Shown here one piece after another: positions 26,621 through 42,418 of a DNA stretch of 44,043 bases. The stretch's first letter is position 1. Every line of letters starts with the position of its first letter. This DNA comes from a virus. Its lineage: Duplodnaviria; Caudoviricetes. Position numbers and translations under genes: made by a program. Where the stretch lies: positions 1 to 44,043 of the IMG/VR virus record IMGVR_UViG_3300005326_000723. One strand, 5' to 3'. The notes below the pieces were generated by a model. It did not search any database and was not told where the DNA came from. It saw only the letters and a program-made list of their open reading frames with translations.

Positions 26621-27166
26621 TCAGGTTCGTTCGAACACGCCGGGGAAGTCCTCATGGCGGCTCCAGTTCTTGTAATGGATGTACTGTTCGCCATTCTGGC
26701 ACTTCACCAGGATGCGCGGTGGCCTGTGGGTCAGACAGGTCAAGGTGGCATGCAGGGTCTTACTTCCCATGGCGCCGTCCACCATAACGTCTGGAAAGAG
26801 TCGCTCGCGGGAGTTGAGGGCATTGAGTGCCCGTTGCAGGAACTTGATGCCATTGCCTGGACCACAGTTGACCGACGCCTCGAATAGCTCCTCGGCCACT
26901 GCCTCGCTCACTGGGTCAATCAGGTGGCATTGCAGCGATTGCCAGAACTCCTTTTGGTAAAAGGAGCGCACCAGGTCGGCCAGGCCGGTCGCCATGGACA
27001 GCGGTTCACCATGTTGGAGGCACTCGTCAATGATCGGCCAACCAGGCCACTCGGGGTGCTTGTTGCGAGCGATGCCCATATAAGTCGCGCCGCCGGGATC
27101 GTTCGGATCATTGGCATAGCCGCCCTCGTGCTGCATGGTGGTGGCGAATGCTCGGGAAAAGCTCAT
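26621..27166 (-). CDS. Endolysin, glycoside hydrolase family 108 with peptidoglycan-binding domain
   Basis: HEGGYANDPNDPGGATYMGI, VNCGPG..LQRALN, VDGAMGSKTL; GAGGG RBS. Confidence 0.92.
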   Translation of the reverse strand: MSFSRAFATTMQHEGGYANDPNDPGGATYMGIARNKHPEWPGWPIIDECLQHGEPLSMATGLADLVRSFYQKEFWQSLQCHLIDPVSEAVAEELFEASVNCGPGNGIKFLQRALNALNSRERLFPDVMVDGAMGSKTLHATLTCLTHRPPRILVKCQNGEQYIHYKNWSRHEDFPGVFERT

Positions 27167-27400: not shown

Positions 27401-27535
27401 GGAGAGAGTGTTTTTGGAATAGCCATAGGTAAAATTACCTATGGAATTTTAATGTGTTTTGAAACTTGTCAAGGTTTTGTGTGGGTGGTACATCAAAACG
27501 GATCTGTTCATTTTTTCACAAAGAAAAAGGCAACG

Positions 27536-27988
27536 ATGAGCGGCAAGGAAGAATCTGAAGAGAATGTTGCTTGCAGTTTCTGCGGCAAGCTGCCCAAAGA
27601 CGTTGAACTCATGTTTTCCGGCGGAGAGCAACTCGCCATCTGCAATGAGTGCGTGACGCTTTGTATGGCCGTTCTGGATGATAGACAAGCATCTGACATT
27701 CCATATCCTAGATTTCTTGGCCAAAAATATCGGGAAACAAATCGAAAGCTCCGGCCTATAACCAAACTGCCGGAAGGGTGGAAGATCAAGGACACCGAGT
27801 TGTATGCCACTGAGCCCTATGTTACCGGTTGCTCCCCTGACGGAAAACGATATGCCGATTTTGCGATCCCCAAGCAGTTGGCCTGGTGGATCATAAGCAA
27901 TGATAAAGCACTGGATGTTGACGAGTTGAGAGAAGAGATCACCAAGCACCTCACGTATGTTGTCTGGCAGACTTTATTGAATTACTGA
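27536..27988 (+). CDS. ClpX-type C4 zinc-finger domain protein (cargo)
   Basis: CSFCGK..VELMFSG..AICNECVTLC matches the ClpX N-terminal zinc-binding domain pattern; no AAA+ domain follows. Confidence 0.82.
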   Translation: MSGKEESEENVACSFCGKLPKDVELMFSGGEQLAICNECVTLCMAVLDDRQASDIPYPRFLGQKYRETNRKLRPITKLPEGWKIKDTELYATEPYVTGCSPDGKRYADFAIPKQLAWWIISNDKALDVDELREEITKHLTYVVWQTLLNY

Positions 27989-28165
27989 AGGGCTCTGAAG
28001 TTAGGATTCGCTCCTCACTCCAACCTACGTGCTGGGCGACCCATCCTGTGGCCAGATGTTGAAATGCAAAATGGTGACAATTCAATACATGACCCCGAAA
28101 ATTCGTAGTGCATGCTGGTCCTGCTGTCGAGCTTTTCAATTTTCTATTCGTGAAGGAATTAGGAG

Positions 28166-30172
28166 ATGATCAATTTTCCTGTTTTTGAACAGTTGGAGGT
28201 AAGAGGCTACGGATTATATCCTGGAACTAGCGAGAAACCAGGCGTCAATATCCATTTCAAATCAGGTCTGACACTAATCCTGGGGGCTAATGGGCTAGGA
28301 AAAACCACCCTAATCACAATTCTCTACCGTATGCTCTCCGGAGCGTACGATTTGCCACGGGTAACGCTGGAAGCTGTTGAGTTAGGAGGCGCTTCTTTGG
28401 ACATCAAACCATTGAACGCCCAGGAAAAAGCATTGTTCGCATATCGAGTGCAGGATTTGGCAACCAATGCAGTCGCGATCTTGCAACTCTCGATTGGAAA
28501 GAATAACCTGACAATTCATCGTAATCTTAAAGATTTGAGCCTTGTCTCTCTCAGTTGCGACAATTCCAAAGTAGTCAAGGACGAGGTGGAATACCAACGA
28601 CTGCTCCCGACACTTTCCGGTGTGCATAGCTTTGGCGATTGGTTGCTGTTGCTGCGGCACATGGTTTTCTATTTCGAAGACCGGAGGGAATTGGTTTGGG
28701 ATGCATCTGCACAACGCCACCTCTTTAGAATGATGTTTCTCTCTCCTCAGGAAGCCGAGACTTGGTATCTGCGGGAGAGAAAAATACTGAGTCTTGACAG
28801 TCAATATCGTAACGATACAGCGTCGCTAAACCGACTGAAGAGGAAAATTACGGCTATTGATAGAGCGCAAGGCGATGAAGCGTCGTTACGTGCCGAGTTA
28901 GCTTCCTTGACAAGACTGCAAGAAGAGGATGACATGGCATATGCTATGCTTGTTGGCGAAGCCGATGTTTTGGACGACAAGCGACATGTACTTCGGAAAA
29001 GCCTGTTGGCGGCAGAGTTAGAAGCCGACAAACGAGCTCGCTCCCTGGAATTTGAGAAACTGACGTTACTCAAGAGCTACTTCCCCTCCGAAATGCAGAC
29101 AGCTCAGTATCTCTATTCATTGCTCATCGCACAAAACCATTGTGCCGTTTGTGGTAACGAGGCTAAAGCTGCGGCAGAGAACCTCGCTTCGCAAGTGACA
29201 AATCTCAAATGTATTGTATGTGGGAGTAATCTTGACCCCTCTACATCCACTGGAAACATTGTCTCTTTTTCTAAACAGAAAGTACAATCCTTGCACGAGA
29301 AGCTAGAAGCAGATAGGGCTCGCGTTTCTGGATTAAAAGACGAATTAAAAGACGTTTCAAATCAATATGACGCCGTTGCCACCCGTCTTATTGATACGCG
29401 AGCAGCGCTTGCAGAACGAGCAAAGCAGATCAGTCGGATCGAAAAAGCTTTGCCAAAGGATCATGGTAAAAATGCCCAAGCCAAGTCTGAGCTTTCTGCC
29501 TTGGGTGAGACTTTGGCTGCGGACAGGGCTGAGTTGTCCAGCCTCGCCAACTCATTTAAGGAGCTAATTGAAAAAGCCAATATCCAAATACTCAAACACT
29601 CCGGCGCAATAAAAGACACCTTTGCTACGTATGCTGGCGGATTTCTCGCTGAAGATGCTCAGTTGAAATGGTCCCCGGTGAGTAAGGCAGTAGGGCAAAC
29701 AGGGATCTCTAAAGCTATTTTCCCTGCATTTGATCTTGAGATGAGCGGCTCCGACTTTACTACGCGGATATCTCGAACAGGGCCACAGTCAGTATCAGAG
29801 AGTCAGCGGGAATTTATCGATTTAGCCTTTCGTATGGCTTTAATTCAAGTTGCTGGTCAAGGCAATGGTGGTTCGCTGGTAATCGACGCACCGGAATCTT
29901 CGCTTGATGCCTTCTTTGTGAAGAGGGCAGCGAATGTACTTTGCCGTTTTGGAAAACCTAATTCTAACAACCGTCTCATAATCGCATCAAATTTGATCGA
30001 TGGACAGTTACTACCAGAAATGATTAAGGGCGGCATCCCTGTCGAGGAACAGGATCAACGTCTTGTGAACCTTATGCAACTTGCTGTTCCCACTGCTGCT
30101 TTACGTGAAAATCGGTCAGAATACGAGGCTGAGTTCGAGAAGATTATGACTTCTGGAGGTCTCCGTGAATAG
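28166..30172 (+). CDS. SMC/Rad50-like ABC ATPase with coiled coil and central Cys pairs (putative defence sensor/motor)
   Basis: Walker A LGANGLGKTT; long coiled coils around CAVC...CIVC; degenerate signature VSESQR; Walker B/D-loop LVIDAPESSLD. Confidence 0.88.
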   Translation: MINFPVFEQLEVRGYGLYPGTSEKPGVNIHFKSGLTLILGANGLGKTTLITILYRMLSGAYDLPRVTLEAVELGGASLDIKPLNAQEKALFAYRVQDLATNAVAILQLSIGKNNLTIHRNLKDLSLVSLSCDNSKVVKDEVEYQRLLPTLSGVHSFGDWLLLLRHMVFYFEDRRELVWDASAQRHLFRMMFLSPQEAETWYLRERKILSLDSQYRNDTASLNRLKRKITAIDRAQGDEASLRAELASLTRLQEEDDMAYAMLVGEADVLDDKRHVLRKSLLAAELEADKRARSLEFEKLTLLKSYFPSEMQTAQYLYSLLIAQNHCAVCGNEAKAAAENLASQVTNLKCIVCGSNLDPSTSTGNIVSFSKQKVQSLHEKLEADRARVSGLKDELKDVSNQYDAVATRLIDTRAALAERAKQISRIEKALPKDHGKNAQAKSELSALGETLAADRAELSSLANSFKELIEKANIQILKHSGAIKDTFATYAGGFLAEDAQLKWSPVSKAVGQTGISKAIFPAFDLEMSGSDFTTRISRTGPQSVSESQREFIDLAFRMALIQVAGQGNGGSLVIDAPESSLDAFFVKRAANVLCRFGKPNSNNRLIIASNLIDGQLLPEMIKGGIPVEEQDQRLVNLMQLAVPTAALRENRSEYEAEFEKIMTSGGLRE

Positions 30173-30839
30173 TGTCCATACTCCCAGTCGGCTGGAACCC
30201 GTTGATCAGCACCGACGATGGTTGAGGATACTATCAATACTGGATGCTTGCCGTTGGGTCGGATTAACCCCTGTCACGACTAACTCGTTGCATGTCATTG
30301 CATATCTTTCCGAAGTATTCGCGCCCGTCTGGCAGGTCAAGTTGTTGAACGGAAAGGTGTTGAAGCAATTGACCTCTCCATACTATCCCACGCTCCAGCA
30401 GGATGTAGATCGTCTTATCGGGATGGGGCTCATCCGAGTCGACGAAATGGATGTTGGCCGAAATGATGATGGAGAGCCTGTCTTGTTACCAAAATTCAGT
30501 TTGGAAGTTGGACGCGTTGAGCCAATCTTGTCCGCACTGCGTGAGCTTCCCGGTGAAGAAATTGACATGGACTTTCTCCGTGAGGTCGTTCAATCATTTT
30601 CCATATTATCTGATGAACAGGTCCCAACATCGATGAATGAGGATGCTACTTACGGAGATCCCGCTGTTGATACAGGACAAGTTATTGACCTTGGTGAGTG
30701 GAAAAAAACAGAGGATACGGCCACCTCGCACGTCGTTGACCGGATTCGTGAACTTGGTGAAAACAGGCTGACTTCTGCGGAAGTCATCGATATGTACGTG
30801 AACCATATTGCCTATCGGGTAAACCATGGATGCCGCTAA
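30165..30839 (+). CDS. Winged-helix-like protein (ABC three-component middle-component-like)
   Basis: Overlaps the ATPase stop; LHVIAYL..SPYYPTLQQDVDRLIGMGLI resembles wHTH middle-component/Panacea-type folds. Fold is inferred. Confidence 0.65.
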   Translation: MNSVHTPSRLEPVDQHRRWLRILSILDACRWVGLTPVTTNSLHVIAYLSEVFAPVWQVKLLNGKVLKQLTSPYYPTLQQDVDRLIGMGLIRVDEMDVGRNDDGEPVLLPKFSLEVGRVEPILSALRELPGEEIDMDFLREVVQSFSILSDEQVPTSMNEDATYGDPAVDTGQVIDLGEWKKTEDTATSHVVDRIRELGENRLTSAEVIDMYVNHIAYRVNHGCR

Positions 30840-31905
30840 ACTGGGTCTTTGGGGAAATGACGATTTGACCGCTACGGTAAAATGCTATTCCGGAAGCCAG
30901 TACTATCAGCCTTTGCCAGATAACGTGCGTTTTGTTCACAGTGTCGCAAAGATCATTTCAACATGTCACGCGAGAGATAAAGATGAGCTTTGCTCAGCGC
31001 CTTCTTTGTATGTCTTAGGCACTGTGCCTGAAGGTGTAGTAAAGCCAAAGCGTGAGCCAGCCTTTAGTCTTGGTGGTGTCGTCGTCTCTGGTAAGATTTG
31101 GTTCGGTGCGCAGGCCATGAACTCTGCCAATGGTGTTGCGATACCAGAATGCAGCGACGCCGATGCTCTATTTACTTTCGTATCGGATACCTTGAAATCA
31201 GGAAGCAGACCAGCAATCTATTTCGATGGAACGGCTAACGAGGAAATCCTACGCTTCTTTCCCAAGGGAGTTGATTTCCCAGAGGAATGCGAGGATATAC
31301 CCCTCGGTGGAGCACACTTAAATGAAGCGACTCTTAAAATAATCCTGGACAGGATTCACGAGCGACACATGAAAACGCCAACTGCGTCGGCGCTCTCTGG
31401 CAAACTATGGTCGAATAAACCGAAATGTTATCCGACAGAAAGGGCTGAGTATGCTGTTCAAAGCATACTCGAAATTGGGCTCGGAACCGCACTAGGGAAT
31501 GTGCGAGCTAAACGAGAAGGGACAGGGGTCTATGGGCGTTATGACCTAGTTCTTGTTGAGCAGGATAAGCAGGATTCGTCGAAGGTCATTAATCACGCTG
31601 TGTTAGAGTTAAAAGTTATCAGGGGGTTCACATCCACCGGAGCAAAGGTTGCCGATATCACCAACCAGACTGCAGTATTAAAAGGAGTGAAACAGGCTTT
31701 CGCATATCGCCAGGAATGTGGCGCACGAATTTCAGCTCTATGTTGCTATGACATGCGGCCAAATCCGAATCTGCATAAGCACTCTGGACGCGGATGCCAA
31801 ATCGCGACTGATTTTGAGGTCGAGTTTTGGGCTTGGCCATTGTTCTCAACAACGGAAGCCGCAAGAGACAGGCTCGCTGAAAACCACTTAAACAAGGAGG
31901 CATAG
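30826..31905 (+). CDS. Putative PD-(D/E)xK restriction-endonuclease-fold nuclease
   Basis: C-terminal half has REG..GRYDLVL..VLELKV..GVKQAFAY (E, D, ExK, QxxxY); overlaps the upstream gene. Confidence 0.72.
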   Translation: MDAAKLGLWGNDDLTATVKCYSGSQYYQPLPDNVRFVHSVAKIISTCHARDKDELCSAPSLYVLGTVPEGVVKPKREPAFSLGGVVVSGKIWFGAQAMNSANGVAIPECSDADALFTFVSDTLKSGSRPAIYFDGTANEEILRFFPKGVDFPEECEDIPLGGAHLNEATLKIILDRIHERHMKTPTASALSGKLWSNKPKCYPTERAEYAVQSILEIGLGTALGNVRAKREGTGVYGRYDLVLVEQDKQDSSKVINHAVLELKVIRGFTSTGAKVADITNQTAVLKGVKQAFAYRQECGARISALCCYDMRPNPNLHKHSGRGCQIATDFEVEFWAWPLFSTTEAARDRLAENHLNKEA

Positions 31906-31943
31906 CAAGCGAGCAAGCCATCGCACGCTCTCAACCCGGATTT

Positions 31944-33260
31944 TCAGCGCTTCCTTAGGACAATCAGTGTTTCGTCCAACGCCTTTTGGCCGCCCTGCTG
32001 GGCAGACGCCCTCATCGAGCGGAAGGATTCGATGTTGACGACATTGTAACCTATGGCAGGAGCTAGCTCTTTGAGAATATCTGCTGTCGGCACCAGAATG
32101 CCAGCATATTGACTGTCGCCGACTACTGCCCACGTTTCTCCCTCTGGTTCCAGTTGCGTATAGAGCCCTTCAAGGACCAGTTTCATATCGTGAAAATATC
32201 CGCCTATCATTTCTGGAATCCATGGACTCCAAAGTTTGCCACGTAACTCTTCCAGTTCCTTGACCACCTGGGTCAATCGATAGGATCCCGTCGGAGGAGG
32301 AGGGTATTCACGCTTGACCTGTACGTGGGAGCAGAGCGTTGACTCACGTAATACTCGATTGTCCGGCAAGCAGGACAAATAGCCCAATATCCACAGTTCA
32401 ATGTTGTATACGTCGGTATAGTCGAACGAATTAGGGTATGGGGGTGAAAAAATAGCCCCATCAATTGGTCCAATTATAGAGGTTTTCGTCCGACAATCAC
32501 CACGAATCAATTCGTACTTCTGTTCTTTCCGGAATCGATATGAGTGAGCTTCGACAATCGCTTTTTGAGAGCGTTCGCAGAATAGGGAATCGAACTCATC
32601 GGGAGAAACTAACCGTAAATCCCAATTGTGGCGGTAACGCCGTCCCTTTCCGTTTACGACGGTGTTGCTAACGTAAACAAGCATGCCGCCAAGTTGAATT
32701 CGGAAGAAGCGACGGTGACAAGGGTTAGACAGGGAGTCAATTGCATCCAGGTAAGCTGCTATTTTGTATGCAATTGGTTTGTTGAATATCCACCGATTCG
32801 TCTTGTTGGATTCTACAAAAGTCGGCGGAAGCGTGGCAAACCGCTGTAAGGAGGATTTGGCAGCATGTACTGCTCGAACAATTCGGCCCAAACTTTGAGC
32901 CAGTTCATCGCTATTGTATGAGCAGAGCTTTGCCTCGATGAGGTCGGCCAGATAGGGATTGACCTCGATTGTAACTGGCTCTATGCCAAGGAATTGGCAG
33001 GTTAAGGCCGTCGTTCCGGACCCCCCAAAGGGGTCAGCGCAACGCAATAGATCCCGCTTTGATCCCTTGGCTGCCTTGGCGACTAGCTCCGGAGTAAAGG
33101 CTTCTTTGAAGTGGTGCCAAGTTTGAAACGGTAGCTTCTCGGCACCGGCATTAGTACCGAGCGCTAACACTTCCCGGTTTTGCGTCCACGATTCGAAAGA
33201 TACATTCAAAATGTCAAAATTTTCAGGCCTTACGGCCCATGATATACCTGTCGTGCTCAT
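31944..33260 (-). CDS. DNA amino-methyltransferase, probably N4-cytosine (motif I before motif IV)
   Basis: WHHFKEAF, DPFGGSGTT (SAM binding), FSPPYPNSFDY (catalytic), VVGDS. Alternative GTG start at 33266. Confidence 0.88.
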   Translation of the reverse strand: MSTTGISWAVRPENFDILNVSFESWTQNREVLALGTNAGAEKLPFQTWHHFKEAFTPELVAKAAKGSKRDLLRCADPFGGSGTTALTCQFLGIEPVTIEVNPYLADLIEAKLCSYNSDELAQSLGRIVRAVHAAKSSLQRFATLPPTFVESNKTNRWIFNKPIAYKIAAYLDAIDSLSNPCHRRFFRIQLGGMLVYVSNTVVNGKGRRYRHNWDLRLVSPDEFDSLFCERSQKAIVEAHSYRFRKEQKYELIRGDCRTKTSIIGPIDGAIFSPPYPNSFDYTDVYNIELWILGYLSCLPDNRVLRESTLCSHVQVKREYPPPPTGSYRLTQVVKELEELRGKLWSPWIPEMIGGYFHDMKLVLEGLYTQLEPEGETWAVVGDSQYAGILVPTADILKELAPAIGYNVVNIESFRSMRASAQQGGQKALDETLIVLRKR

Positions 33261-33317
33261 GGGCACACTTTAGCAGAAACCAATCAATCCTTCATCCTCA
33301 TTGTCGCAATAAATTTT

Positions 33318-33638
33318 TCAAAACAACCTCAACTGCCGCCCATCCATCTTCCCTAAAATATTCCAAATCTGCCGCTCCTGCAGGCCATACTTCCGGGCTA
33401 GGTCCGTTCCGGAATACCGGCCGGTGTCGTAGTCACGCCGGATACACTGATCCCGCCAACTCCGCCGCCAGCTCTTCCAGCCATAGATCCGCAGGGAGAT
33501 GCCATCAAATCGCTGGGCCAGCTTGAGGGCATTCCCCACGCCGATCAACTCCGCCACTCGGCGCATGTCGCCGTTCAAATCCTCCAGTCGTGGCCAGGCA
33601 TCCGGCGGCAATTCGAACGATTCATCCTGCCAGTTCAC
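33318..33638 (-). CDS. Mor/C-family transcription activator
   Basis: VAELIG..ALKLAQRFDG..IY..RDQCIR..LARKYGLQERQIWNIL; follows gemA. Confidence 0.9.
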   Translation of the reverse strand: MNWQDESFELPPDAWPRLEDLNGDMRRVAELIGVGNALKLAQRFDGISLRIYGWKSWRRSWRDQCIRRDYDTGRYSGTDLARKYGLQERQIWNILGKMDGRQLRLF

Positions 33639-34072
33639 TGGTTGCTTGTTCCTCGTATCTTCAACCGATGCTCCAGATCGGTTATCAGAATATGCAGGGC
33701 GTCATGATCCTCCAGCCACTCGAACCGGTCGACCCCAAACTGCTTATTGACCCTGGCATGGAGCTTGGGCATGGCGTAACCCAGCTCGTGCCACAGGGCC
33801 AACACCTTGCGCTGCTGCTTGGCGGCCGGGCCGGGTTTGATCTCAATGAACTGGCTACCGGCCTTCCGTTGCCGAGCACCGGTATAAGGTTTCGGCTCCC
33901 AGCCCTTGGCCTTGAACAGATTGATCAGCTCTCGAGCCTGCTGCTCGGTCAATTCCCTGGCCGATCCCACTCCGAAATTGAATCCCAGCATGTCCCGGTA
34001 GGTTTCCTCACTCAGGCCCAGTTCCTTCTTGGCAATATGAATCCTGGCCAGTGCACTGTTACTCGGCGTCAT
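33635..34072 (-). CDS. gemA: GemA-like protein (Mu gp16/DUF1018)
   Basis: LARIHIAKKELGLSEETYRDML..GVGSARELT..KVLALWHELG..FGVDRFEWL. Confidence 0.9.
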   Translation of the reverse strand: MTPSNSALARIHIAKKELGLSEETYRDMLGFNFGVGSARELTEQQARELINLFKAKGWEPKPYTGARQRKAGSQFIEIKPGPAAKQQRKVLALWHELGYAMPKLHARVNKQFGVDRFEWLEDHDALHILITDLEHRLKIRGTSNQ

Positions 34073-34586
34073 GTTGCTCTCCATGCTGTGCAAGAAATTT
34101 GCGCATGATCTCGCTCATGCCTTCTTCCGAGGGCTGACGGGACACCCGATGGGTACCGTCGATCTCCTGTTGCCGCTGTTGTTGTTCCTTGTGACCGTCC
34201 ACCTGGTTGGCTATCTTGTAAACGATGGATCGCAGATAGTTGTGGTTCTTCATCGGTAGGTCCAGAGTTCCGGCCAACTCCTGCATCCGCTCCATACCCA
34301 TCGCCCAGGAAACCGGGGAGCAGGTTCGATCTACCTTGCCCTTCTCTGAAATATAGCCCTTGGCAACCAGGTCGGCCAGGTCCCTGGTCAACCGTTCCGC
34401 CTTGGTCGGCTGAATGGCGCATCCCGAGGCGGGCCTGAACAGGGACAGATATTTGAGAAACTGCTTTTGCACTTCGCGAGGCAAATCCGAAAAAGCCTGC
34501 AAGAGTGCTCCATGTTCCGCTGCATCCGCAAAGCAAGTCACTGGCGCCTTGAATGCACATCGCGGGCATTTTCCGTTTACGGGCAT
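34059..34586 (-). CDS. Early-region protein with N-terminal CxxC
   Basis: CPRC, YLSLFRP and LPMKNHNYL motifs; usual position before gemA. Confidence 0.8.
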   Translation of the reverse strand: MPVNGKCPRCAFKAPVTCFADAAEHGALLQAFSDLPREVQKQFLKYLSLFRPASGCAIQPTKAERLTRDLADLVAKGYISEKGKVDRTCSPVSWAMGMERMQELAGTLDLPMKNHNYLRSIVYKIANQVDGHKEQQQRQQEIDGTHRVSRQPSEEGMSEIMRKFLAQHGEQHDAE

Positions 34587-34665
34587 TTTTCATGTTCTCC
34601 CTGGCTGCTCATCAGATCCGGAGCGCCACCGCCGGATGATCCCGGTCAAGCCGGGATTTCGCACG

Positions 34666-34800
34666 TCATTGCGGTCGCTTTGGCCCCGGCCAAACAACCT
34701 GCGCCTTGCTGATTTTCATTTCACACTCCGGACAGAGGCTATCCTGCTCGATGGCGCGGCCACAAGCAGCACAGAGCCAGGTGTGTGCTTTGACCTCCAT
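34666..34800 (-). CDS. Very small zinc-finger-like protein (44 aa)
   Basis: CAAC..CPEC; ATG 4 nt after the gam stop. Confidence 0.45.
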   Translation of the reverse strand: MEVKAHTWLCAACGRAIEQDSLCPECEMKISKAQVVWPGPKRPQ

Positions 34801-34804
34801 CTTC

Positions 34805-35335
34805 TCACACCTTTGCCGCCTCGAGTTCTGTTTCAAACGGTTCGACATTGAAATTCTCCCCAGCGCTGCCGATCGTCACTCCTGGCACCAACCTGGCGGC
34901 ATCGGGTTCGTCCAGCATCGCTTCCTTGTTCACCTCTTCGCGGATCCGCAGGAATCGTTTCAACCCGAGTTTCTTCAGCGCATCGATCACCGACTCCACC
35001 TTTCTGATCGTGACCCGTGGGGGCAAGGCCCGCCACGAGATGACCCCGGTGGCCAACTCTGCCGACTGGCGTTTTCCGCCACTGGTCAAATCGTCGCGGT
35101 GCGCAATGGCCCACGCCTGCAACCCGGTCAACAGCGCCTCGATATCCTCGCGGTAGGGTCGGGCCGTTTCCTCGTGCTCCGCCTTGATCCCGGCGATTTT
35201 GTCGTTCATCGCCGTCTCGATGCGCACCACTTCGCGCCGGTGCTCGCCGATCTGCCTGATCCAATACTCGGCTTCCTCCCGGCTCTGTGGCACAACGATA
35301 CGTGCGGTAGTTTTGCCCTTGATCTTGCCGCTCAT
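34805..35335 (-). CDS. gam: Host-nuclease inhibitor Gam-like protein
   Basis: VPQSREEA..IRQIG..MNDKIA..TGVISWRALPP..RIREEVNKEAML..GENFNVEP; GGAGG RBS. Confidence 0.92.
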   Translation of the reverse strand: MSGKIKGKTTARIVVPQSREEAEYWIRQIGEHRREVVRIETAMNDKIAGIKAEHEETARPYREDIEALLTGLQAWAIAHRDDLTSGGKRQSAELATGVISWRALPPRVTIRKVESVIDALKKLGLKRFLRIREEVNKEAMLDEPDAARLVPGVTIGSAGENFNVEPFETELEAAKV

Positions 35336-35712
35336 GCCTCCTCCACGTTTGCGCACATATCCTTACGGATGGTCATGCGGTCCAGGTTTACATAGGTGCT
35401 GATCTTATCCCGGCCCAATTCGCAGGCATAGCCGATGCTGACCAACTGGCGGCTATCCGGACAGCCTCCGCATTCATTGAACAGGTCGACGATCCGCTGC
35501 ACCTGGGCCACAGCATCGTCCCGGTATCCCTGCACTACCTCGGGGCACGCCAGGTGACGCTGTAATGCCTGGGTGATGCACCAGAGCCGAGTCAACTTGT
35601 CTCCCATGCCCTGATCCTGGCGGGCGACCCTTTGAATGTTGGCCTTCAAGCCATCGATTGCCATGCCGATTTCCGTCAACTGTTCAAGCATCTGCAACTG
35701 TTGCGTTTCCAT
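35332..35712 (-). CDS. Hypothetical early protein (126 aa)
   Basis: AAGGAG RBS before METQQ; stop overlaps the gam start. Confidence 0.7.
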   Translation of the reverse strand: METQQLQMLEQLTEIGMAIDGLKANIQRVARQDQGMGDKLTRLWCITQALQRHLACPEVVQGYRDDAVAQVQRIVDLFNECGGCPDSRQLVSIGYACELGRDKISTYVNLDRMTIRKDMCANVEEA

Positions 35713-35843
35713 TGTCACGTTCTCCTTCCGATTGCGGCCCGCTGCTCCAAGGTGTATTTTGGAACAGGAGCCTGGTTGATTCTCCTTCGCTCCACTCTCC
35801 TGGCCGGGGGATGCGCCAACATTCCCCGGCTTTTCCTGTGTAA

Positions 35844-36017
35844 TTAGGTGATGGCCCGCGTCAGCAGGACACAGGCACCATATCCCATGATCAGGATCGA
35901 GACCGGTGTCCAGAACACGCTCGGCCCGATCAATACCATTCCGGCAACTCCCGACCCGAAGGCCATCCTTGGAATCCACCGGTACAACCCTTCGGGCAGC
36001 CAGATGTGCTTCAGCAT
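35844..36017 (-). CDS. Small two-TM membrane protein (57 aa)
   Basis: AAGGAGG RBS; hydrophobic sequence. Confidence 0.7.
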   Translation of the reverse strand: MLKHIWLPEGLYRWIPRMAFGSGVAGMVLIGPSVFWTPVSILIMGYGACVLLTRAIT

Positions 36018-36031
36018 GGCATCGCCTCCTT

Positions 36032-36364
36032 TTATTCCTCTTCCTTTGGATCGCTGTTGTTCGGACAGGCTCGGCATGCCTGGAACATCCGTACCCGGTG
36101 GGGATTGGCCGTGGTGAACGGCCTTCTTCGTTCCTCGACACAGACCGGATAAGCGATTGCTCCCATGACCGGACAAAAAACCTCGGTCTTGCCAAACACC
36201 TCTTCAACCCTGGTTAAAAAGGCGTCCAACGCCCCTTTATACAAACCCGCCAACACCTGGGAGACCGTGGCCGTGCTGTAACCGAGCAACCTGGCCACCT
36301 TGGCCTGGCTGCCCAACTCCGCCACAGCCTCGCGCAGCAGTTCGAGCCGGTCATCGTTCGTCAT
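36032..36364 (-). CDS. XRE-type HTH protein with C-terminal Cys cluster
   Basis: GSQAKVARLLGYSTATVSQVLAGLY; CPVMG..C..CRACP; GAGGAGG RBS. Confidence 0.85.
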   Translation of the reverse strand: MTNDDRLELLREAVAELGSQAKVARLLGYSTATVSQVLAGLYKGALDAFLTRVEEVFGKTEVFCPVMGAIAYPVCVEERRRPFTTANPHRVRMFQACRACPNNSDPKEEE

Positions 36365-36935
36365 TGCCGGCCTCCTCATCGCTGCGCCACCGCACCTTTT
36401 GCTGGTTCGGATCCCAGACCCGCTTGGTCCGCTGGATTTGCGGCGCCAGCGGGCCAGTGTAGGCTGCGGGTAGGAAGATGTAACCATTGCCGCTTTTCTT
36501 CAGGTACCCAGCCCTGCACAGGTGGTAGGTGTAGTCGATGGCGGTTTGTTCTTTGACCAGGCATTCCGGTAGGCTCGCGGCCACGGCCAGTTCGCGGGCC
36601 GTAAAGATGCGAAGGATCCGCATGGCCTCCCACATGTTCTTGCAGCCATCGCCCATGGTGACCTGCGTGCCGTCCTTGCGCACGCGCGGGGCCTCGACGC
36701 CGACGTCTTTTCTAAGTTCCCAGACAACCGGATCGCCCGGCCGCTTCGACTCGTGGGTGCGTTCGATGAAGCCTGCCTTTTCCAGACCCACCACGTACTC
36801 CCTGACGGAATCCAGCCTCAGCACCGTTTCCTCGCGTAGTGTGCGCAGCGTGAAGGTCTGCATCCGCCGAATCGCTGCCCAGAGCGCCTGGCGGGAGTCG
36901 AACCCGTTACGCTTGTCCATCGGTTTAAGCGCCAT
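36351..36935 (-). CDS. Winged-helix DNA-binding protein downstream of MuB
   Basis: ALWAAIRR..FT..YVVGLEKAGF; EAPRVRKDG; MWEAMRILRIFT; YTGPLAPQIQR. Confidence 0.85.
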   Translation of the reverse strand: MALKPMDKRNGFDSRQALWAAIRRMQTFTLRTLREETVLRLDSVREYVVGLEKAGFIERTHESKRPGDPVVWELRKDVGVEAPRVRKDGTQVTMGDGCKNMWEAMRILRIFTARELAVAASLPECLVKEQTAIDYTYHLCRAGYLKKSGNGYIFLPAAYTGPLAPQIQRTKRVWDPNQQKVRWRSDEEAGNDER

Positions 36936-37677
36936 ATCGCCTCCCCCTGGATCCGCCCACCAGGAACTCGCGGGAGCCCCAATCCTTGAGGCAGACCGAC
37001 TCCATGCCGACATCGGCGGCAAACCCGGCCACCTGCGCCAGGTTGAGGCAGACCCGGCCGGCGGAACCGTCGCTCACCTCGGTGATCCGCTCCAGGAGGT
37101 CCTGGGCGATCTCCACCTCGGGGTGATACAGCCGCCGCAAATGGGCAGCATCCTCGATATCCACGGGAACGGCCTGCACCCATTCCAGCACCCGCCGGTG
37201 GAACCGTTCCCAGCGTTTGAGCTTGTCGTAGACGCCCTGTTCGCCGATCAGTAGGATTACCGCACCCGAGCCTTCGAACAGGTCCCGGATCAGCTCCACG
37301 CTCTTCTTCTCCACCAGCTTGTCCAGCTCGTCGACAATCAATGGTCGGCCGCTCTTGGCCAGCTGCTCACACGCCTGTTCCGCCATCTCCCACACCCGCT
37401 GTTTAGGTGGGATGCCCATGGTTTGCAGGATGTAGTGGAGGATGGCCCGGCCATTCCAGGTCTCCTGGCACTGGATGTAATAGCCCCGATGCTTCAGGCT
37501 GACATAGGTCGCCGCCTTGGACTTGCCCCAGCCCGCCGGCCCGTACATGCACACCATGCCCGGTAGGTGGCCGGGCCGCTGCATGGCTCGCTCCACCGCG
37601 CTGGCGCACAGGCTGACATTTGCCAGCGGCGCTACCGTGTACGCGGTGAAATCCGTTTTCTTGCCTTTTTCCTTCAT
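36925..37677 (-). CDS. MuB-like AAA+ transposition ATPase
   Basis: Walker A YGPAGWGKS, Walker B PLIVDELD, ILLIGE, WERFHRRV; AAGGAG RBS. Confidence 0.92.
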   Translation of the reverse strand: MKEKGKKTDFTAYTVAPLANVSLCASAVERAMQRPGHLPGMVCMYGPAGWGKSKAATYVSLKHRGYYIQCQETWNGRAILHYILQTMGIPPKQRVWEMAEQACEQLAKSGRPLIVDELDKLVEKKSVELIRDLFEGSGAVILLIGEQGVYDKLKRWERFHRRVLEWVQAVPVDIEDAAHLRRLYHPEVEIAQDLLERITEVSDGSAGRVCLNLAQVAGFAADVGMESVCLKDWGSREFLVGGSRGRRYGA

Positions 37678-37726
37678 TGGCGTTACTCTCCTTGTGGTTT
37701 CCTTTTGAGACATCGGAAGCGTTTTT

Positions 37727-38263
37727 TTAGGGCCGTGCGCCAACACGGCCCATGTTCTTTCTCCTCGACAGAGCAGTGCAAATCCACCGCGACAACGCCG
37801 AGAATGCCGCATACCAACCGCAGTGATCCCGAACAAAACCCTCACTATCCTCGATTTGTTTCAGACCGAGCCGACGAGCTGATCGATGAACTTGCGCCAG
37901 GGCAAGTCGAGCGACTCCGTGATGCATTGCGTACCAAAACCTTGGCAGACTGGATGTACTGGTTCGAAAGTGCACGGGAAGCGATTTGTAGATATGACTC
38001 GCTAACTCCCTCCGAGCGCAGATCCCTGCTTCAAAATCAGCACGATATTGAGCCATTATTGCTTCAGCATGCCTGTGTCTTCTTTGAGCTTTGGCGTCAG
38101 CGAACCGAGATGCAATTCTACGCTCTTCACCACAATGAATTTCTGATTGAAAATCAGCAGGAACAACGCGAAATGATGTTCTCTGTTCTGGCATCGTACA
38201 ACAGTGCTCCTGTGTATGATTACTGGCCGTTTGGCGGCGAGTTTCCATTTTGTTTCGATACAT
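37727..38263 (-). CDS. Possible overlapping sense ORF (178 aa) bridging MuA and MuB
   Basis: AGGAG RBS and ATG just after the MuA stop; open across the whole antisense gene; no recognisable domain. Confidence 0.35.
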   Translation of the reverse strand: MYRNKMETRRQTASNHTQEHCCTMPEQRTSFRVVPADFQSEIHCGEERRIASRFADAKAQRRHRHAEAIMAQYRADFEAGICARRELASHIYKSLPVHFRTSTSSLPRFWYAMHHGVARLALAQVHRSARRLGLKQIEDSEGFVRDHCGWYAAFSALSRWICTALSRRKNMGRVGARP

Positions 38264-38265
38264 AG
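37804..38265 (+). CDS. Antisense cargo gene between MuA and MuB (153 aa, helical, unknown function)
   Basis: Lower-GC segment with a protein-like acidic/aromatic sequence; start uncertain. Confidence 0.55.
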   Translation: MPHTNRSDPEQNPHYPRFVSDRADELIDELAPGQVERLRDALRTKTLADWMYWFESAREAICRYDSLTPSERRSLLQNQHDIEPLLLQHACVFFELWRQRTEMQFYALHHNEFLIENQQEQREMMFSVLASYNSAPVYDYWPFGGEFPFCFDT

Positions 38266-38275
38266 ACTCTCCTGT

Positions 38276-40378
38276 TCACCCCTGCCGCCTGCCCAGCTGC
38301 TCCTCCACCTCGGTGAATGTCCGGAAGGTTGCGGAGTTTCGGAAGCTTTCGTAGAAGCGCATGGCCCGTTCCTCCAGTACCTCGCCATCCCGTAACCTGC
38401 CGTCCAGCTCTCGCCACAACCGGTACATGTCGCGATCGTTGTGGGGGATGGTGAAGGTCTCCGGTGCATTCATCTCCACCGCCAGCCTGGCCCTGGCCGC
38501 TGTCAGTTCTGGCCGCTCCTCGCTCTTGACCGGGAAAGTGAGCAACTCGCCCTTGGGACGGAGTTGCGGCGCCGGGATGAGATCGATGACGCCCCGGCCT
38601 TCCTCGTGGATCAGGTCAAGCTGTTGCTGCTTGATCTCGGCCCGCCGCTTGGTGCGCCGTTCCTGCGCCTGCTCCACCATGGATTTGGGGAAGTAGTCGA
38701 TCCGGTTCTTCTCGAACCAGGCGTAACAGACCAGGCGTCCCTGTTGATCCCAGATCTGCACCTTGGAGGCGTCGTTGGGGAAGTAGGCCACCTGCACCGC
38801 CTCGCCCTCGATATGGGCCAGGTCGGCGTTGTAGTAGTGGTTGTTGCCGAGCTGCACCATGGAGCGGACCACCTTCCGTTCTTCCCTTGGCAGCCACAGG
38901 ATCTCGATCTCGGCCTCGGTGAGCTGGTGTTCCTTGGGATTCCAGCCATCGGCCACATGCCAGGCCCAGCATTCCAGGGGTGACATGTGTCGCTTGCGGC
39001 CGGTTTCCGGGTCGTTGATCTTGGGCAGGCTGCTGTGGGGCCTGCGGTTGTAGGTGTCGACCGTCTCCTGGCAGAAGTCGAGGAACTGCGGCCAACTGAT
39101 CAGGTGCTCGCTGCCGCCTTTCTTCTCGAAGTCCCGCTGCATCACCATGTAGAGGTTGCGCTTGGTGCTCTTATCCATTTCCCGGCCGGTAAAGGTGGCC
39201 AGTTCCTTGGCGCTCCTGATCCACATCGTCCGGTTGGGTCGTTCGATCACGCCGTGGCCCTGGGGATTACCCGGCCGACCGGTAGTGAAAGTGGTGCCGA
39301 TCCGGGCAAACAGGCCGGTTTTATCGTCGGTGTTGACGCCTGCCATGTTGCCGGAGCCGCCATCGGTGTAGACGATGTCGAAGATGCCGCCGTAGGGTTT
39401 ATGTTCGCTCACCATGGCTGCGTCACGAATCGCCCCGGCCACGGTCAGGGCGGATTCCGCGAGACCTGCCGACCAGCCGGCCACCACCTTGGTGGCGACG
39501 TCGATGATAGCGCATACTTCGGGATGGAACGGCCGGCCGTGCACCGGATGCGCCACCTTGGCCTTGTAACTGTGACCGTCGCAGCAGCCGATGGTCATCG
39601 GCCGGTAGCCGCTGGTATCGCGCTGCCAGTAGCCTTTCAGGGCCTGGTAGGCGGCGCCGGTCTTGCGGCCTTTTTCCCGTTCCAACCGGGAGCGCTTGTT
39701 ATGGAAGCGCAGCACCTGGTGGTAGGAGGGCATGGCCGTGCCCTCGGGCAGGATCTTGGCCATCTGTTCCATGGCCTCAGGAATGGTAGGGTTGGAGGGG
39801 CGCTGATAGCACTGGATGAAGAAGCCGGCCCACTCGGGGAAGGTTGGTTTCTCCATTGGTTTGGGCGCCAAGGCCGCGAAGCCGTAGCGCCGCACCGCCC
39901 GTTGCCAGCTCAGGATCAGGGAGCGGGAGAGGGTGCGGGCCTCGCCCTTGCGGGCATTGGCCAGGACCACGCATTGCATCAGTTGTTCCGGCAGCCTCTC
40001 TTGTTTGGCCATCTCCACCATAGTGTCCACGGCCCGGTTGGTACCGTGCAGCTTTTGCAGTTGTTCGAACTCCCGGTACAGGGTGACGCGTGCTTCGAAG
40101 ATCTCCCGCTGCCACCCCTTCAGGCTGGTGAGCCTCTGGTCGGTCTGTTCCCGGATGACCAGTTCCTTGTCCTTGGAAGGCGTGGGTGCATACTGGAAAT
40201 GGAGGGCGGCCTGGGTTTCTGCGGGTAGGCAGGTCAGGTGGTATTCCTTGCCGCCACCCTGGCCTTGGCGATACCGGGCCATCCAGTGTTCTTTCCGCGC
40301 CTTCTTGATGATGCCCGGTATTGAGGTGGGCATGCCCGGCAGGCCAGTCAGTTCGGAGGTTCTGAACCAGTCTTTCAT
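38276..40378 (-). CDS. MuA-like DDE transposase
   Basis: N-terminal Mu DNA-binding domain (WFRTSELTGLPGMP..GGGKEYHLTCLP); DDE triad CCDGH / YTDGGSG / GVIER; YNRRPHSSL. Confidence 0.95.
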   Translation of the reverse strand: MKDWFRTSELTGLPGMPTSIPGIIKKARKEHWMARYRQGQGGGKEYHLTCLPAETQAALHFQYAPTPSKDKELVIREQTDQRLTSLKGWQREIFEARVTLYREFEQLQKLHGTNRAVDTMVEMAKQERLPEQLMQCVVLANARKGEARTLSRSLILSWQRAVRRYGFAALAPKPMEKPTFPEWAGFFIQCYQRPSNPTIPEAMEQMAKILPEGTAMPSYHQVLRFHNKRSRLEREKGRKTGAAYQALKGYWQRDTSGYRPMTIGCCDGHSYKAKVAHPVHGRPFHPEVCAIIDVATKVVAGWSAGLAESALTVAGAIRDAAMVSEHKPYGGIFDIVYTDGGSGNMAGVNTDDKTGLFARIGTTFTTGRPGNPQGHGVIERPNRTMWIRSAKELATFTGREMDKSTKRNLYMVMQRDFEKKGGSEHLISWPQFLDFCQETVDTYNRRPHSSLPKINDPETGRKRHMSPLECWAWHVADGWNPKEHQLTEAEIEILWLPREERKVVRSMVQLGNNHYYNADLAHIEGEAVQVAYFPNDASKVQIWDQQGRLVCYAWFEKNRIDYFPKSMVEQAQERRTKRRAEIKQQQLDLIHEEGRGVIDLIPAPQLRPKGELLTFPVKSEERPELTAARARLAVEMNAPETFTIPHNDRDMYRLWRELDGRLRDGEVLEERAMRFYESFRNSATFRTFTEVEEQLGRRQG

Positions 40379-40590
40379 GCGGCCTTCCTCATATCCTCGG
40401 GAATGGCAAGAAACCGTTCCGGGCACCCCATTTCCAAGAACCAAGTCAACACTCGGCGGTTGTTTTCGCGTCCCTCGATGGTGGCCCACACCGTCTTGTT
40501 GTCCTTGAACCCCAGTTCTTTCTGGATGGTTACCAGCCGGATGCCTTGTCGCTGTAGCCATACCCGGATTTCGACGCTATCCCGTTTCAT
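40375..40590 (-). CDS. Ner-like small HTH regulator
   Basis: 71 aa directly upstream of the transposase with an ATGA overlap; EIRVWLQRQGI..IQKELG..TVWATIEG. Confidence 0.75.
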   Translation of the reverse strand: MKRDSVEIRVWLQRQGIRLVTIQKELGFKDNKTVWATIEGRENNRRVLTWFLEMGCPERFLAIPEDMRKAA

Positions 40591-40595
40591 CGTCT

Positions 40596-41492
40596 CTATG
40601 CCTGCAGGTTGGAGGGTTCGAGCAAGAGGTCACGGAAAACTTCCTCGGCTTGGGCCTCGGTTTCGTATTCACCGTACACCAGCCAGGTCCCGGCGGTTTC
40701 CATCTGCTCGATCCGGATTTTGTCCATGAGCCTGAATATCCCGAAACCAGACGCGAGGAGTTTCTCCAGATTGTTGGACCGCCAGAGGATTTTCTGCTCG
40801 CGGATGTTCTGTTCGCCGCATTCGCCCACTCTCCGGGCCAGGTTGTTCAGGGTGGCGAAGAGGGTTTCCCTGGAGGTGTATTTCCAGCCGCTGTTGTGCT
40901 CGATCTCGACCTGTTTGAGAAATCCCTCCCAGGCTTGAGTGAACTCGGCGGATTGACGGCTGGTTTTGGCATGGGTTCGGGGCTTGGCTTGTTCGCCGGC
41001 CTGTCTGATGCTGTCGGAGAGCTGTTCCCCCTTGAAGGACTTGACCGCGTTCTTCACCGTTTTGGCTGTGACCTTGAAAGGGGCCTCTTCGGGTGTTGAG
41101 GGCTGTTTGGTCTCGATCAGTTGTTGCCAGACCTGTTTCTGTTCTTCCGGTTCCAGTCGGGAGAGTTCTCTTGCCTGGGACTCGTTGGCCGGCATGCGTT
41201 CCCAATCGATGCTGCCGTCCTCTTTTGCGCCAATGGGCGTCAGGTTCTCGATCACCTTGGAGGCGGCCACAAGACGATCGGCGTATTTGTAGCCCATGTC
41301 CCAGATCTCCCGGCAGTAGCCTTCCCAGGTCCGGCCATCGCTGGTCCGGTACAAGCGTTTCTCGCGGATCTCCATGAGGGCATTGCCCACCGCCACATAG
41401 GCCAGAAAGTTTTCCCGGATGATCGATTCCAGTGCCGAGAGGCGGGTTTGTTCCACCGGGGTCAAGGGTTTGTCTTCGATGATCAGTTCCAT
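40596..41492 (-). CDS. Early protein of unknown function (298 aa)
   Basis: VGNALMEIREKRLYR..TWEGYC..PANESQAREL motif typical of phage DNA-associated proteins; GGGAG RBS. Confidence 0.8.
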   Translation of the reverse strand: MELIIEDKPLTPVEQTRLSALESIIRENFLAYVAVGNALMEIREKRLYRTSDGRTWEGYCREIWDMGYKYADRLVAASKVIENLTPIGAKEDGSIDWERMPANESQARELSRLEPEEQKQVWQQLIETKQPSTPEEAPFKVTAKTVKNAVKSFKGEQLSDSIRQAGEQAKPRTHAKTSRQSAEFTQAWEGFLKQVEIEHNSGWKYTSRETLFATLNNLARRVGECGEQNIREQKILWRSNNLEKLLASGFGIFRLMDKIRIEQMETAGTWLVYGEYETEAQAEEVFRDLLLEPSNLQA

Positions 41493-41501
41493 GCCTGCTC
41501 C

Positions 41502-41924
41502 CTAGAGTGTCGCCTTCAATTTCTTCATCATCGCCTGCTTCTGCTTGACCTCCTGGTCCAGTTCGGCCAGTCGCAGCAGCTTGGCTTATTTGTCGTCAAT
41601 CACTCGCCAGCCAAGTGGCGCCACCAGGACCTGCATCGGCTCGATGCTGTCGGTGGCCGCGCAGAAAACCGGCAGCGCCTTGATAGGGATGACCCGTTCC
41701 TTGTCCTCCGGGTTCAGCCACTTCTCGAAGGTGGCCATGGTCAGGTTCGGTCCGTTTCCCTTCACCAGCCGGACGCCGTAGCGGTCTGCGAGTTGGTTGA
41801 CCCGGGCGCAGAGTTCATCCCGCGAGAGTCCGGTCGCATCGGCAGCCTTGGCCATGGCGGTCTTCAGGTCCCGGAGCACGTTGAGCGTCGGTGCGGTGCT
41901 GAAGAGGCCAAGTTGCGTTACCAT
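41502..41924 (-). pseudogene. Early regulatory protein (CII/CP76-like) interrupted by an in-frame TAA at 41586-41588
   Basis: After IDDK* the frame continues AKLLRLAELDQEVKQKQAMMKKLKATL* to 41502, ending at the next gene's RBS. Confidence 0.7.
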
Positions 41925-42217
41925 CAGGTTCGCTCCTCATGCAGTCGCTCGGCGATTCTCACGGCTTGCTCCAAGGTGAAGAAGCCGAATTTGTAGCCCT
42001 GGCGACCATGCCATCGGCCATCAACACGCAACCGGAAATACTTCTGCCAGTATTCCCGGTTGCGTAGTGGTGGATGCGGGTGCATGGTTTTCCGGTAGGG
42101 GCTCCAGTTCCGTCGCCACTGCTCTGCTTTAAACAGTTCGATTCGGAGTGGTTTTTTGCCCTCGGTGGCGGCATTTCCCCATCGCCACACAATGTCCGGC
42201 ATCCGGATTTCACTCAT
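41924..42217 (-). CDS. Hypothetical basic early protein (97 aa)
   Basis: First sizeable ORF after the early promoter; TGATG overlap with the next gene. Confidence 0.7.
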   Translation of the reverse strand: MSEIRMPDIVWRWGNAATEGKKPLRIELFKAEQWRRNWSPYRKTMHPHPPLRNREYWQKYFRLRVDGRWHGRQGYKFGFFTLEQAVRIAERLHEERT

Positions 42218-42389: not shown

Positions 42390-42418
42390 GGTATAGAAGA
42401 AAATCGCGACCGAGTCAA
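42390..42418 (-). promoter_or_regulatory. Early lytic promoter (Pe-like)
   Basis: TTGACT (42418-42413), 17 bp, TATACC (42395-42390); divergent from the repressor. Confidence 0.65.

What the first reader, a model, noticed from the sequence alone, without database searches (positions are those of the whole stretch)
28166..33266. Candidate new defence system: SMC-like ABC ATPase + wHTH + PD-(D/E)xK nuclease facing an SPPY DNA methyltransferase
Seen: a visibly lower-GC block between mor/C and the lysis genes holds three overlapping + strand genes. They encode a 668-aa Rad50/SMC-like ATPase (GANGLGKT, coiled coil with CAVC..CIVC, unusual signature SESQR, IDAPESSLD), a 224-aa wHTH-like protein and a 359-aa protein with D..ELK..QxxxY. 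They converge on a 438-aa MTase (DPFGGSGTT, SPPY). Known: ABC three-component/Lamassu-type systems pair an SMC-like ATPase, a small middle component and an effector, but are not defined by a cognate MTase; classical RM types use helicase-like or AAA+ motors rather than an SMC-like ABC ATPase. Inference: a hybrid in which an SMC-like scanner licenses a nuclease and methylation marks self. I cannot assign it to a named system.
Basis: partly seen in the sequence, partly recalled or inferred. Interest (0 to 1): 0.88.

Follow-up and report, generated by a model that had tools for sequence, protein, structure and literature searches.

The report
Rad50-like nuclease machine with obligate methylase
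A Mu-like phage carries four genes (a Rad50-like ATPase, a small adaptor, a nuclease and a DNA methylase) that stay together across at least seven bacterial phyla and likely form an unnamed anti-virus system in which methylation would mark the cell's own DNA and the ATPase would gate the cutting of unmarked DNA.

Summary
Observation confirmed; the methylase link passes its tests. The four ORFs fill a 48% GC block in the mor-endolysin slot of a 60% GC Mu-like phage; relatives carry other low-GC cargo or none there. All 52 of 54 ATPase-seeded GTDB loci not cut by a contig end hold ATPase-adaptor-nuclease plus an SPPY methylase, and so do 7 of 7 adaptor-seeded loci. The methylase sits in four arrangements and was exchanged between two ~25%-identical clades at least three times, yet never missing. 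The ATPase folds like Rad50/LmuB (two invariant CxxC); the nuclease is PD-(D/E)xK with QxxxY behind a tentatively DisA/DAC-like domain. No Pfam, NCBIfam or PADLOC model matches adaptor or nuclease at cut-off; gene order and effector polarity are the reverse of Lamassu. Best reading (0.5): an ATP-gated restriction-modification-like defence system; defence of some kind about 0.85. The scan noted the same kind of cassette before in another genome (e1-6723353).

The parts
28166..30172 (+). Rad50/LmuB-like coiled-coil ABC ATPase, 668 aa, two CxxC zinc-hook-type motifs, degenerate Walker B (DAP), Asn at the H-loop position
   Evidence: AAA_23; PADLOC LmuB PDLC03859 E 9e-21, res 27-595; Rad50 Z 26; LmuB chains E 2e-12 to 3e-10
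30165..30839 (+). 224-aa middle/adaptor protein of an unnamed family, probably winged-helix (Panacea/PadR/MC2-like leads only)
   Evidence: (349 clusters at 50% identity)
30826..31905 (+). 359-aa nuclease: N-terminal domain (31-164) tentatively of DisA/DAC fold without cyclase motifs; C-terminal PD-(D/E)xK domain (161-343) with QxxxY
   Evidence: PDDEXK_9 in 21 of 52 members; pLDDT 91
31944..33266 (-). Amino-DNA methyltransferase, motif I before SPPY (alpha order), probably N4-cytosine; co-directional with mor, 51 bases downstream of it
   Evidence: (MTase_II PDLC03224 E 3e-46)
27516..33316 (.). Variable low-GC cargo slot of the Mu-like phage between the endolysin leader and mor
   Evidence: DNA similarity to L145 stops at 27515 and resumes at 33317; other cargo in L145, L146, L152, L154/L163; no low-GC cargo in L149, L151
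27536..27988 (+). 150-aa ClpX-type C4 zinc-finger ORF; passenger in the slot, not part of the conserved cassette
33318..33638 (-). Mor-family activator, right border of the slot (context)
26621..27166 (-). Endolysin, left border of the slot (context)

Best explanation
The four genes travel as one unit across many phyla and likely form an ATP-gated restriction-modification-like defence system: the methylase would mark a short site on resident DNA, and a predicted complex of ATPase, adaptor and nuclease would hold the nuclease idle until it meets DNA that lacks the mark, which it would then cut. Shown here: the gene set and its linkage, the folds of ATPase and nuclease, invariant catalytic motifs, mobile and defence-rich surroundings. 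Inferred: (1) the mark is N4-methylcytosine (SPPY, alpha order; relatives serve type II enzymes such as a BsoBI-family nuclease); (2) ATPase dimer, adaptor and nuclease bind each other, as LmuB, LmuC and LmuA do, with the N-terminal DAC-like domain as anchor or oligomer-forming module in place of the LmuA C-terminal domain; (3) the nuclease has little sequence preference of its own, so the mark is read by the ATPase-adaptor-nuclease assembly or with help of the methylase; (4) in this phage the methylase, lying just behind mor on the same strand, is made with the phage's own transcription and protects replicating phage DNA, while the opposite-strand operon guards the lysogen against other phages and plasmids.
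For: Linkage in both directions: 52 of 54 ATPase-seeded loci, the 2 misses cut by contig ends; 7 of 7 fetched adaptor-seeded loci, 5 of them new; 7 of 8 methylase-seeded loci scoring over 300 bits have partner genes, the eighth is a 1.6-kb contig. The methylase is kept through four arrangements (45 convergent, 5 downstream same strand, 1 upstream divergent, 1 upstream same strand) and at least three clade exchanges, which a passenger would not survive. Its own transcription unit in 46 of 52 loci fits methylate-first control (inference). Pairwise identities covary among 38 clade-A loci (ATPase-nuclease rho 0.83, ATPase-methylase 0.48, permutation p 0.001; kinship alone produces such correlation). 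Both methylase clades share (D/N)G(K/R)xxR and R..T/R...SH motifs largely absent from 6 unlinked relatives, compatible with one shared specificity. Flanks hold integrases, relaxases, type I RM, HipA, AbiEii, HEPN and SIR2 genes. The phage slot holds other defence-like cargo in relatives.
Against: No experiment, methylome or target site. Nuclease and methylase identities do not covary once both methylase clades are included (rho 0.06, p 0.27, 46 loci): L009 vs L027 are 57/63/55% identical in ATPase/adaptor/nuclease but 25% in the methylase, unlike a cognate type II pair. Four loci hold two distant ATPase operons or a second ATPase around one methylase (L005, L040, L048, L056), so a triad may not need a private mark. 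Walker B lacks the catalytic Glu (Ala 42, Thr 6 of 48), arguing against a processive motor. The methylase profile was built from linked genes, so the 300-bit boundary is partly circular. Flank content was not compared with a random-gene control.
Confidence: 0.5

Rival explanations
1. A Lamassu-like suicide system that guards the methylase: the ATPase-adaptor pair senses DNA ends or the loss or inhibition of the methylase (DNA mimics, SAM depletion) and releases a non-specific nuclease that destroys all DNA; methylation does not protect the target.
For: Closest profile and folds are LmuB and Rad50; degenerate Walker B as in short LmuB (PMC12663957, part 1); nuclease unaffected by methylase exchange; two operons can share one methylase; nearest nuclease folds include non-specific CdiA-CT and NucS.
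Against: Characterised Lamassu systems need no methylase ('methyl' occurs 0 times in PMC12663957 and PMC10586767); gene order and effector polarity are reversed; no LmuA or LmuC model matches the 52 and 53 aligned members.
Confidence: 0.22
2. Modification-dependent killing: the methylase is switched on at infection and the nuclease cuts the newly methylated DNA, as proposed for Ambrosia.
For: Separate transcription unit allows conditional expression; precedent in 10.1101/2025.09.30.679545 (passages); MspJI and McrBC appear among weak fold neighbours.
Against: No SRA, EVE or PUA-like reader domain found in the nuclease model; in this phage the methylase follows mor on the phage's own strand, so induction would be suicidal (inference); five loci place it in the same operon direction as the nuclease.
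Confidence: 0.08
3. Mainly a selfish addiction module that stabilises mobile elements: loss of the cassette dilutes the mark and the nuclease kills the cell; phage defence is secondary or absent.
For: Rare and patchy (8 non-centre hits in 1,950 sampled genomes), often beside integrases and relaxases; 6 of 52 loci have split ORFs.
Against: A 668-aa ATPase and an adaptor are not needed for addiction; the phage slot rotates unrelated defence-like cargo. Not exclusive with the best reading.
Confidence: 0.12
4. A DNA repair or recombination module (SbcCD-like) with a linked methylase.
For: Top structural match is Rad50 (Z 26); NucS/EndoMS is a top nuclease fold neighbour.
Against: No Mre11/SbcD-type phosphoesterase in the cassette; rare, mobile and patchy; carried as low-GC phage cargo.
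Confidence: 0.04

Closest known systems
Lamassu / DdmABC / ABC three-component systems (short LmuB type)
   Same: SMC-like ABC ATPase of about 600-670 aa with CxxC motifs and degenerate Walker B, a small middle gene, a nuclease gene; best PADLOC hit LmuB PDLC03859 (E 9e-21, 73 bits), Foldseek hits to LmuB structures.
   Different: Order ATPase-middle-effector instead of effector-middle-ATPase; nuclease domain C-terminal, not N-terminal; effector not interchangeable in the loci seen (PD-(D/E)xK in all but L057); no LmuA or LmuC profile match in the main family; an obligate DNA methylase.
CxC ABC ATPase-DndE systems (PbeABCD) and DndD-DndE (PMC10853773, section 16 and passages)
   Same: Zinc-hook coiled-coil ABC ATPase plus small partner proposed as DNA scanner; some neighbourhoods carry cytosine-5 or cytosine-N4 methylases proposed as self mark.
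   Different: Partner there is ribbon-helix-helix DndE and the effector an HKD nuclease-SF2 helicase; methylases occur only in some loci. Here no helicase, a 220-aa adaptor, a PD-(D/E)xK nuclease, and only weak PbeC/DndD hits (E 1e-5 or worse in the window protein).
Type II restriction-modification with alpha-type SPPY methylases (e.g. BsoBI family)
   Same: Methylase family: distant relatives sit beside a BsoBI-family nuclease (L088, E 1e-145) and an AlwI-like nuclease (L077); separate transcription of methylase and nuclease.
   Different: Two extra obligatory genes; nuclease not of a known type II family; methylase exchangeable without nuclease change.
BREX / Wadjet (recalled; BREX paper PMC12839542 seen in passages only)
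   Same: Multi-gene defence with a large ATPase, winged-helix partner and (BREX) a self-marking methylase or (Wadjet) an SMC-gated nuclease.
   Different: BREX uses AAA+ BrxC, PglX and PglZ; Wadjet uses a hinge SMC, TOPRIM JetD and no methylase; no profile of either matched.

Membership tests
Lamassu (LmuABC / ABC-3C) | LmuB: SMC-like ABC ATPase, about 600 or 800 aa, Walker A, 0-2 CxxC | tested here: met
   score is modest (73 bits), so a relative rather than a core member
Lamassu (LmuABC / ABC-3C) | LmuA with N-terminal effector and C-terminal CTD | tested here: not met
   Nuclease domain is residues 161-343; 0 of 52 members match an LmuA model at E 0.1; one divergent member has E 0.004 over 50 residues
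Lamassu (LmuABC / ABC-3C) | LmuC / MC-family middle component | tested here: inconclusive
   0 of 53 members match LmuC or Pfam MC families; leads only: Atlas MC2 0.82, LmuC E 0.009 for divergent L076; no structure predicted
Lamassu (LmuABC / ABC-3C) | Operon order effector-middle-ATPase, no methylase required | tested here: not met
   Order ATPase-middle-nuclease with methylase in 52 of 52 untruncated loci
Lamassu (LmuABC / ABC-3C) | A1B2C1 complex, DNA-end sensing, abortive infection | not testable with these tools
CxC ABC ATPase-DndE (PbeABCD) | DndE ribbon-helix-helix partner and HKD-SF2 helicase effector | tested here: not met
   No conserved fifth gene; no DndE, PbeA or PbeD profile hit for adaptor or nuclease; nuclease is PD-(D/E)xK
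Type II restriction-modification | Stand-alone methylase with intact motifs I and IV | tested here: met
Type II restriction-modification | ATP-independent nuclease sharing the methylase's site, two-gene core | tested here: inconclusive
   Two extra genes always present; nuclease-methylase covariation lost across methylase clades; specificity itself untestable here
Diadenylate cyclase (DAC/DisA_N) | DAC fold | tested here: inconclusive
   Foldseek rank 1, E 3.6e-4; Z 5.5-6.8, rmsd 3.5-4.5, 112-122 aligned, under the tool's chance range of Z 8; profile comparison with 5 DAC sequences gave probability 0.3%
Diadenylate cyclase (DAC/DisA_N) | DGA and RHR catalytic motifs | tested here: not met
   Present in all 5 fetched DAC proteins (DGA or DGG; RHR or RHM), not among conserved columns of the 52 nucleases

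The most novel reading that the evidence does not exclude
An undescribed class of restriction-modification in which a Rad50/Lamassu-type SMC-like ATPase and its adaptor, not the nuclease, read an N4-methylcytosine self mark and unleash a nuclease caged through a dead diadenylate-cyclase-fold domain: the missing link between DNA-end-sensing Lamassu and epigenetic self/non-self systems, with swappable methylases.
Probability: 0.3. Interest if true: 0.88.

Novelty: new variant of a known kind. Interest (0 to 1): 0.72.

Why it matters
How SMC-like immune ATPases tell foreign from own DNA is an open question (PMC10586767, passages); the characterised ones use DNA ends or topology. A compact four-gene, 5.1-kb unit in which such an ATPase is never without a DNA methylase makes it directly testable whether a base modification can gate an SMC-like sensor. 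It would add an ATP-dependent restriction architecture with neither helicase nor AAA+ motor, is missed by PADLOC 2.0 rules as a system, and this copy is intact. The mor-endolysin slot of these Mu-like phages is also a new place to mine for defence genes.

Tried and rejected
Passenger methylase: rejected. Zinc-finger ORF or any fifth gene as part of the system: rejected. Active diadenylate cyclase: rejected on motifs. Sequence searches of PDB with ATPase, nuclease and adaptor profiles gave only chance or coiled-coil hits. No relatives in INPHARED phages; single-sequence IMG/VR scan none, alignment scan one truncated hit; 2 plasmid records. Promoter scan at chance level (7 vs 7.1). Fetching MC2 proteins for a profile comparison found none in 5 genomes; comparison of the adaptor profile with 2 Panacea proteins gave probability 8%, P 0.004, controls 0.3 and 0.43: a lead only. 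Palindrome depletion in the phage arms (CCGCGG 0 vs 12, CCCGGG 1 vs 13, AGGCCT 0 vs 11, GGGCCC 0 vs 8) cannot be tied to this recently acquired cassette. The maximum-likelihood methylase tree did not finish; FastTree was used, with long branches flagged. The wide VIA search of the ATPase did not run; the narrower one did. Krishnan et al. 2020 (PMC7544218) is not held.
Full report
Observation. The block is 48.2% GC in phage arms of 59-60%. The window is a 44,043-base virus record with Mu-like transposase, transposition protein, Gam, Mor, endolysin and terminase. The host is not determined; the nearest cassettes are in Desulfocapsa and Solidesulfovibrio (ATPase 69 and 68%, methylase 78 and 72%).

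The slot. Of 19 related viral loci, 7 allowed the mor-to-lysis interval to be read. L145 (Mor 96% identical) has 6.7 kb at 45% GC with an HSP90-like ATPase, a metallophosphoesterase-like and an NTPase-like ORF (my reading of motifs); L146 has 4.4 kb at 35% GC with a 945-aa MinD/ParA-like protein (weak hit) and a 164-aa ORF; L152 1.4 kb; L154 and L163 the same 3.5 kb; L149 and L151 no low-GC cargo. DNA likeness to L145 stops at 27515 and resumes at 33317. The slot is a cargo hotspot; none of the 19 holds this cassette.

ATPase. AAA_23 over cut-off; best PADLOC hit LmuB PDLC03859, residues 27-595, E 9e-21. The model (pLDDT 85) matches Rad50, SMC heads, LmuB and JetC, Rad50 at Z 26. In 48 of 48 sequences G40, N42, G43, G45, K46, both CxxC, SESQ, D574 and N609 are invariant; the Walker B Glu is Ala (42) or Thr (6). 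Short LmuB has hhhhD[Q/S/T/E] and 0-2 CxxC (PMC12663957, parts 1-2 of 8 read). That the H-loop is normally His is recalled.

Adaptor. No Pfam, NCBIfam or PADLOC family fits; the family has 349 clusters at 50% identity. Atlas neighbours with a name are MJ1567, PadR/Panacea and MC2 at 0.82-0.85, leads only. Divergent members give DarG E 1e-4 and LmuC E 0.009. A winged-helix fold is plausible, not shown; no model was made.

Nuclease. PDDEXK_9 in 21 of 52 members; invariant E231, D240, E261, K263, Q290, Y294. The model (pLDDT 91, pTM 0.87) matches restriction-endonuclease folds over 161-343 (CdiA-CT Z 9.7, NucS 8.3, BamHI 7.9). Residues 31-164 match DisA and DacM cyclase domains (Foldseek rank 1, E 3.6e-4; Z 5.5-6.8, about 115 residues, 3.5 A). 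This is below the level the tool calls safe, has no profile support, and the DGA and RHR motifs are not conserved, so at most a dead DAC fold. That QxxxY marks nucleases which rely on partners for targeting is recalled.

Methylase. MTase_II PDLC03224, E 3e-46; motif I precedes SPPY. Alpha order and SPPY as typical of N4-cytosine enzymes are established knowledge, recalled. Distant relatives sit beside BsoBI-family, AlwI-like and PLD nucleases.

Linkage. The GTDB scan found 146 relatives, kept the best 80, and gave 54 loci (seeded on two conserved words, so biased to the main family). 52 of 54 hold all four genes; L036 and L044 end at the contig edge; L040's methylase is cut; 6 of the 52 have split ORFs. 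46 of these loci, placed in a tree, span seven named phyla. Independent seeding with the adaptor in 1,955 sampled genomes of five phyla gave 13 hits, 5 being the centre genomes and one a 259-base contig; the other 7 all have four genes, 2 duplicating earlier loci (for L181 the divergent-nuclease profile contained its own protein). Seeding with the methylase (2 of 64 parts of the metagenomes, 80 of 152 relatives kept): 7 of 8 loci over 300 bits have partner genes, the eighth has no flank; nine weaker relatives with flank have none. Plasmid L056 has one methylase between two divergent operons; L057 has a split ATPase, an unrecognised third gene and a KAP NTPase before the methylase. Flank clustering shows no fifth gene. 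Of 114 flank ORFs scanned (of 147 picked), many are integrases, relaxases, type I RM, HipA, AbiEii, HEPN, SIR2, HNH, TniQ, others housekeeping or without hit; no control set was run.

Evolution. Linked methylases form two groups about 25% identical, with unlinked type II-like enzymes between them (FastTree, long branches flagged). On the ATPase tree of 46 loci the two types need three changes, all forced by branches of 95 or more; on the nuclease tree four, two forced. Within clade A all four genes covary; across clades nuclease and methylase do not. Both clades share motifs largely missing in unlinked relatives. So a methylase is always kept but can be replaced: either both clades write the same mark, or the mark is not read by a sequence-specific nuclease.

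Mechanism. I commit to ATP-gated, mark-sensitive restriction (0.5); rivals are a Lamassu-like guard with cell death (0.22), addiction (0.12), modification-dependent killing (0.08), repair (0.04). Complex formation, the mark, its reader and defence are all inferred.

Known systems. It works like a Lamassu core joined to a type II methylase but fails Lamassu membership on effector polarity, order and methylase. The nearest precedent in print is the CxC ABC ATPase-DndE system with optional cytosine-N4 methylases (PMC10853773, section 16 and passages), which has other partners. Ten searches listed no paper on this set; I saw listings and abstract starts only, plus passages of PMC12839542, PMC10586767, PMC12663957 and 10.1101/2025.09.30.679545. 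No supplements were read. Krishnan et al. [quoted passage not shown] PADLOC here dates from 2023 and DefenseFinder was not available.

Earlier notes. My reading was fixed. One search then showed note e1-6723353, the same kind of cassette, broken, in another genome, which agrees but is not independent evidence, and e1-4979939, a different cassette whose methylase was judged a passenger, the alternative tested and rejected here.

Verdict. Real, conserved, apparently unnamed and untested; new variant of a known kind; interest 0.72.

Noticed in passing
L145:9820-16004: Different cargo in the same phage slot: HSP90-like ATPase (781 aa), metallophosphoesterase-like protein (498 aa) and NTPase-like protein (578 aa), 45% GC; candidate defence module.
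   Followed up: partly
L146:10078-13412: Same slot: 945-aa protein with a MinD/ParA-like P-loop and a second P-loop, plus a 164-aa ORF that looks HEPN-like by eye; 35% GC; candidate defence pair.
   Followed up: partly
L005:1948-11018; L040:780-8713; L048:5806-13995; L056:3692-13815: Two distantly related ATPase operons (third proteins 16-24% identical to the window's, catalytic motifs intact) around a single methylase; in L048 only the second ATPase is within the locus.
   Followed up: partly
L057:4306-15081: Variant on an Azospirillum replicon after a transposase and NTP-binding gene pair: split ATPase, adaptor, 300-aa third gene without a recognised nuclease motif, KAP NTPase, methylase.
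   Followed up: partly
L064/L181, L073, L076, L078, L179: A divergent branch of the system (third gene with EIKW/EVKW-type nuclease motif, methylase mostly in the same direction) shows the family is wider than the main clade.
   Followed up: partly
window 27536-27988: Stand-alone ClpX-type C4 zinc-finger ORF in the cargo slot, preceded by a 9-pair terminator-like hairpin at 27423-27444.
   Followed up: partly
window 1-3451: Second low-GC end region (43-49%): a Dam-like DNA methyltransferase (2624-3451, PHROG 56) and an 857-aa ORF of unknown function cut by the window start.
   Followed up: no
window 3001-27200 and 33301-42500: Phage arms avoid CCGCGG, CCCGGG, AGGCCT and GGGCCC (0-1 seen, 8-13 expected), suggesting host restriction pressure.
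   Followed up: no
window 43504-44043: Tyrosine integrase fragment beyond the Mu-like repressor, probably flanking host or second-element DNA.
   Followed up: no
L111:6641-10800; L117:6695-10814: About 950-aa fused methylases facing PLD-type nucleases, relatives of this methylase family without the ATPase operon.
   Followed up: no
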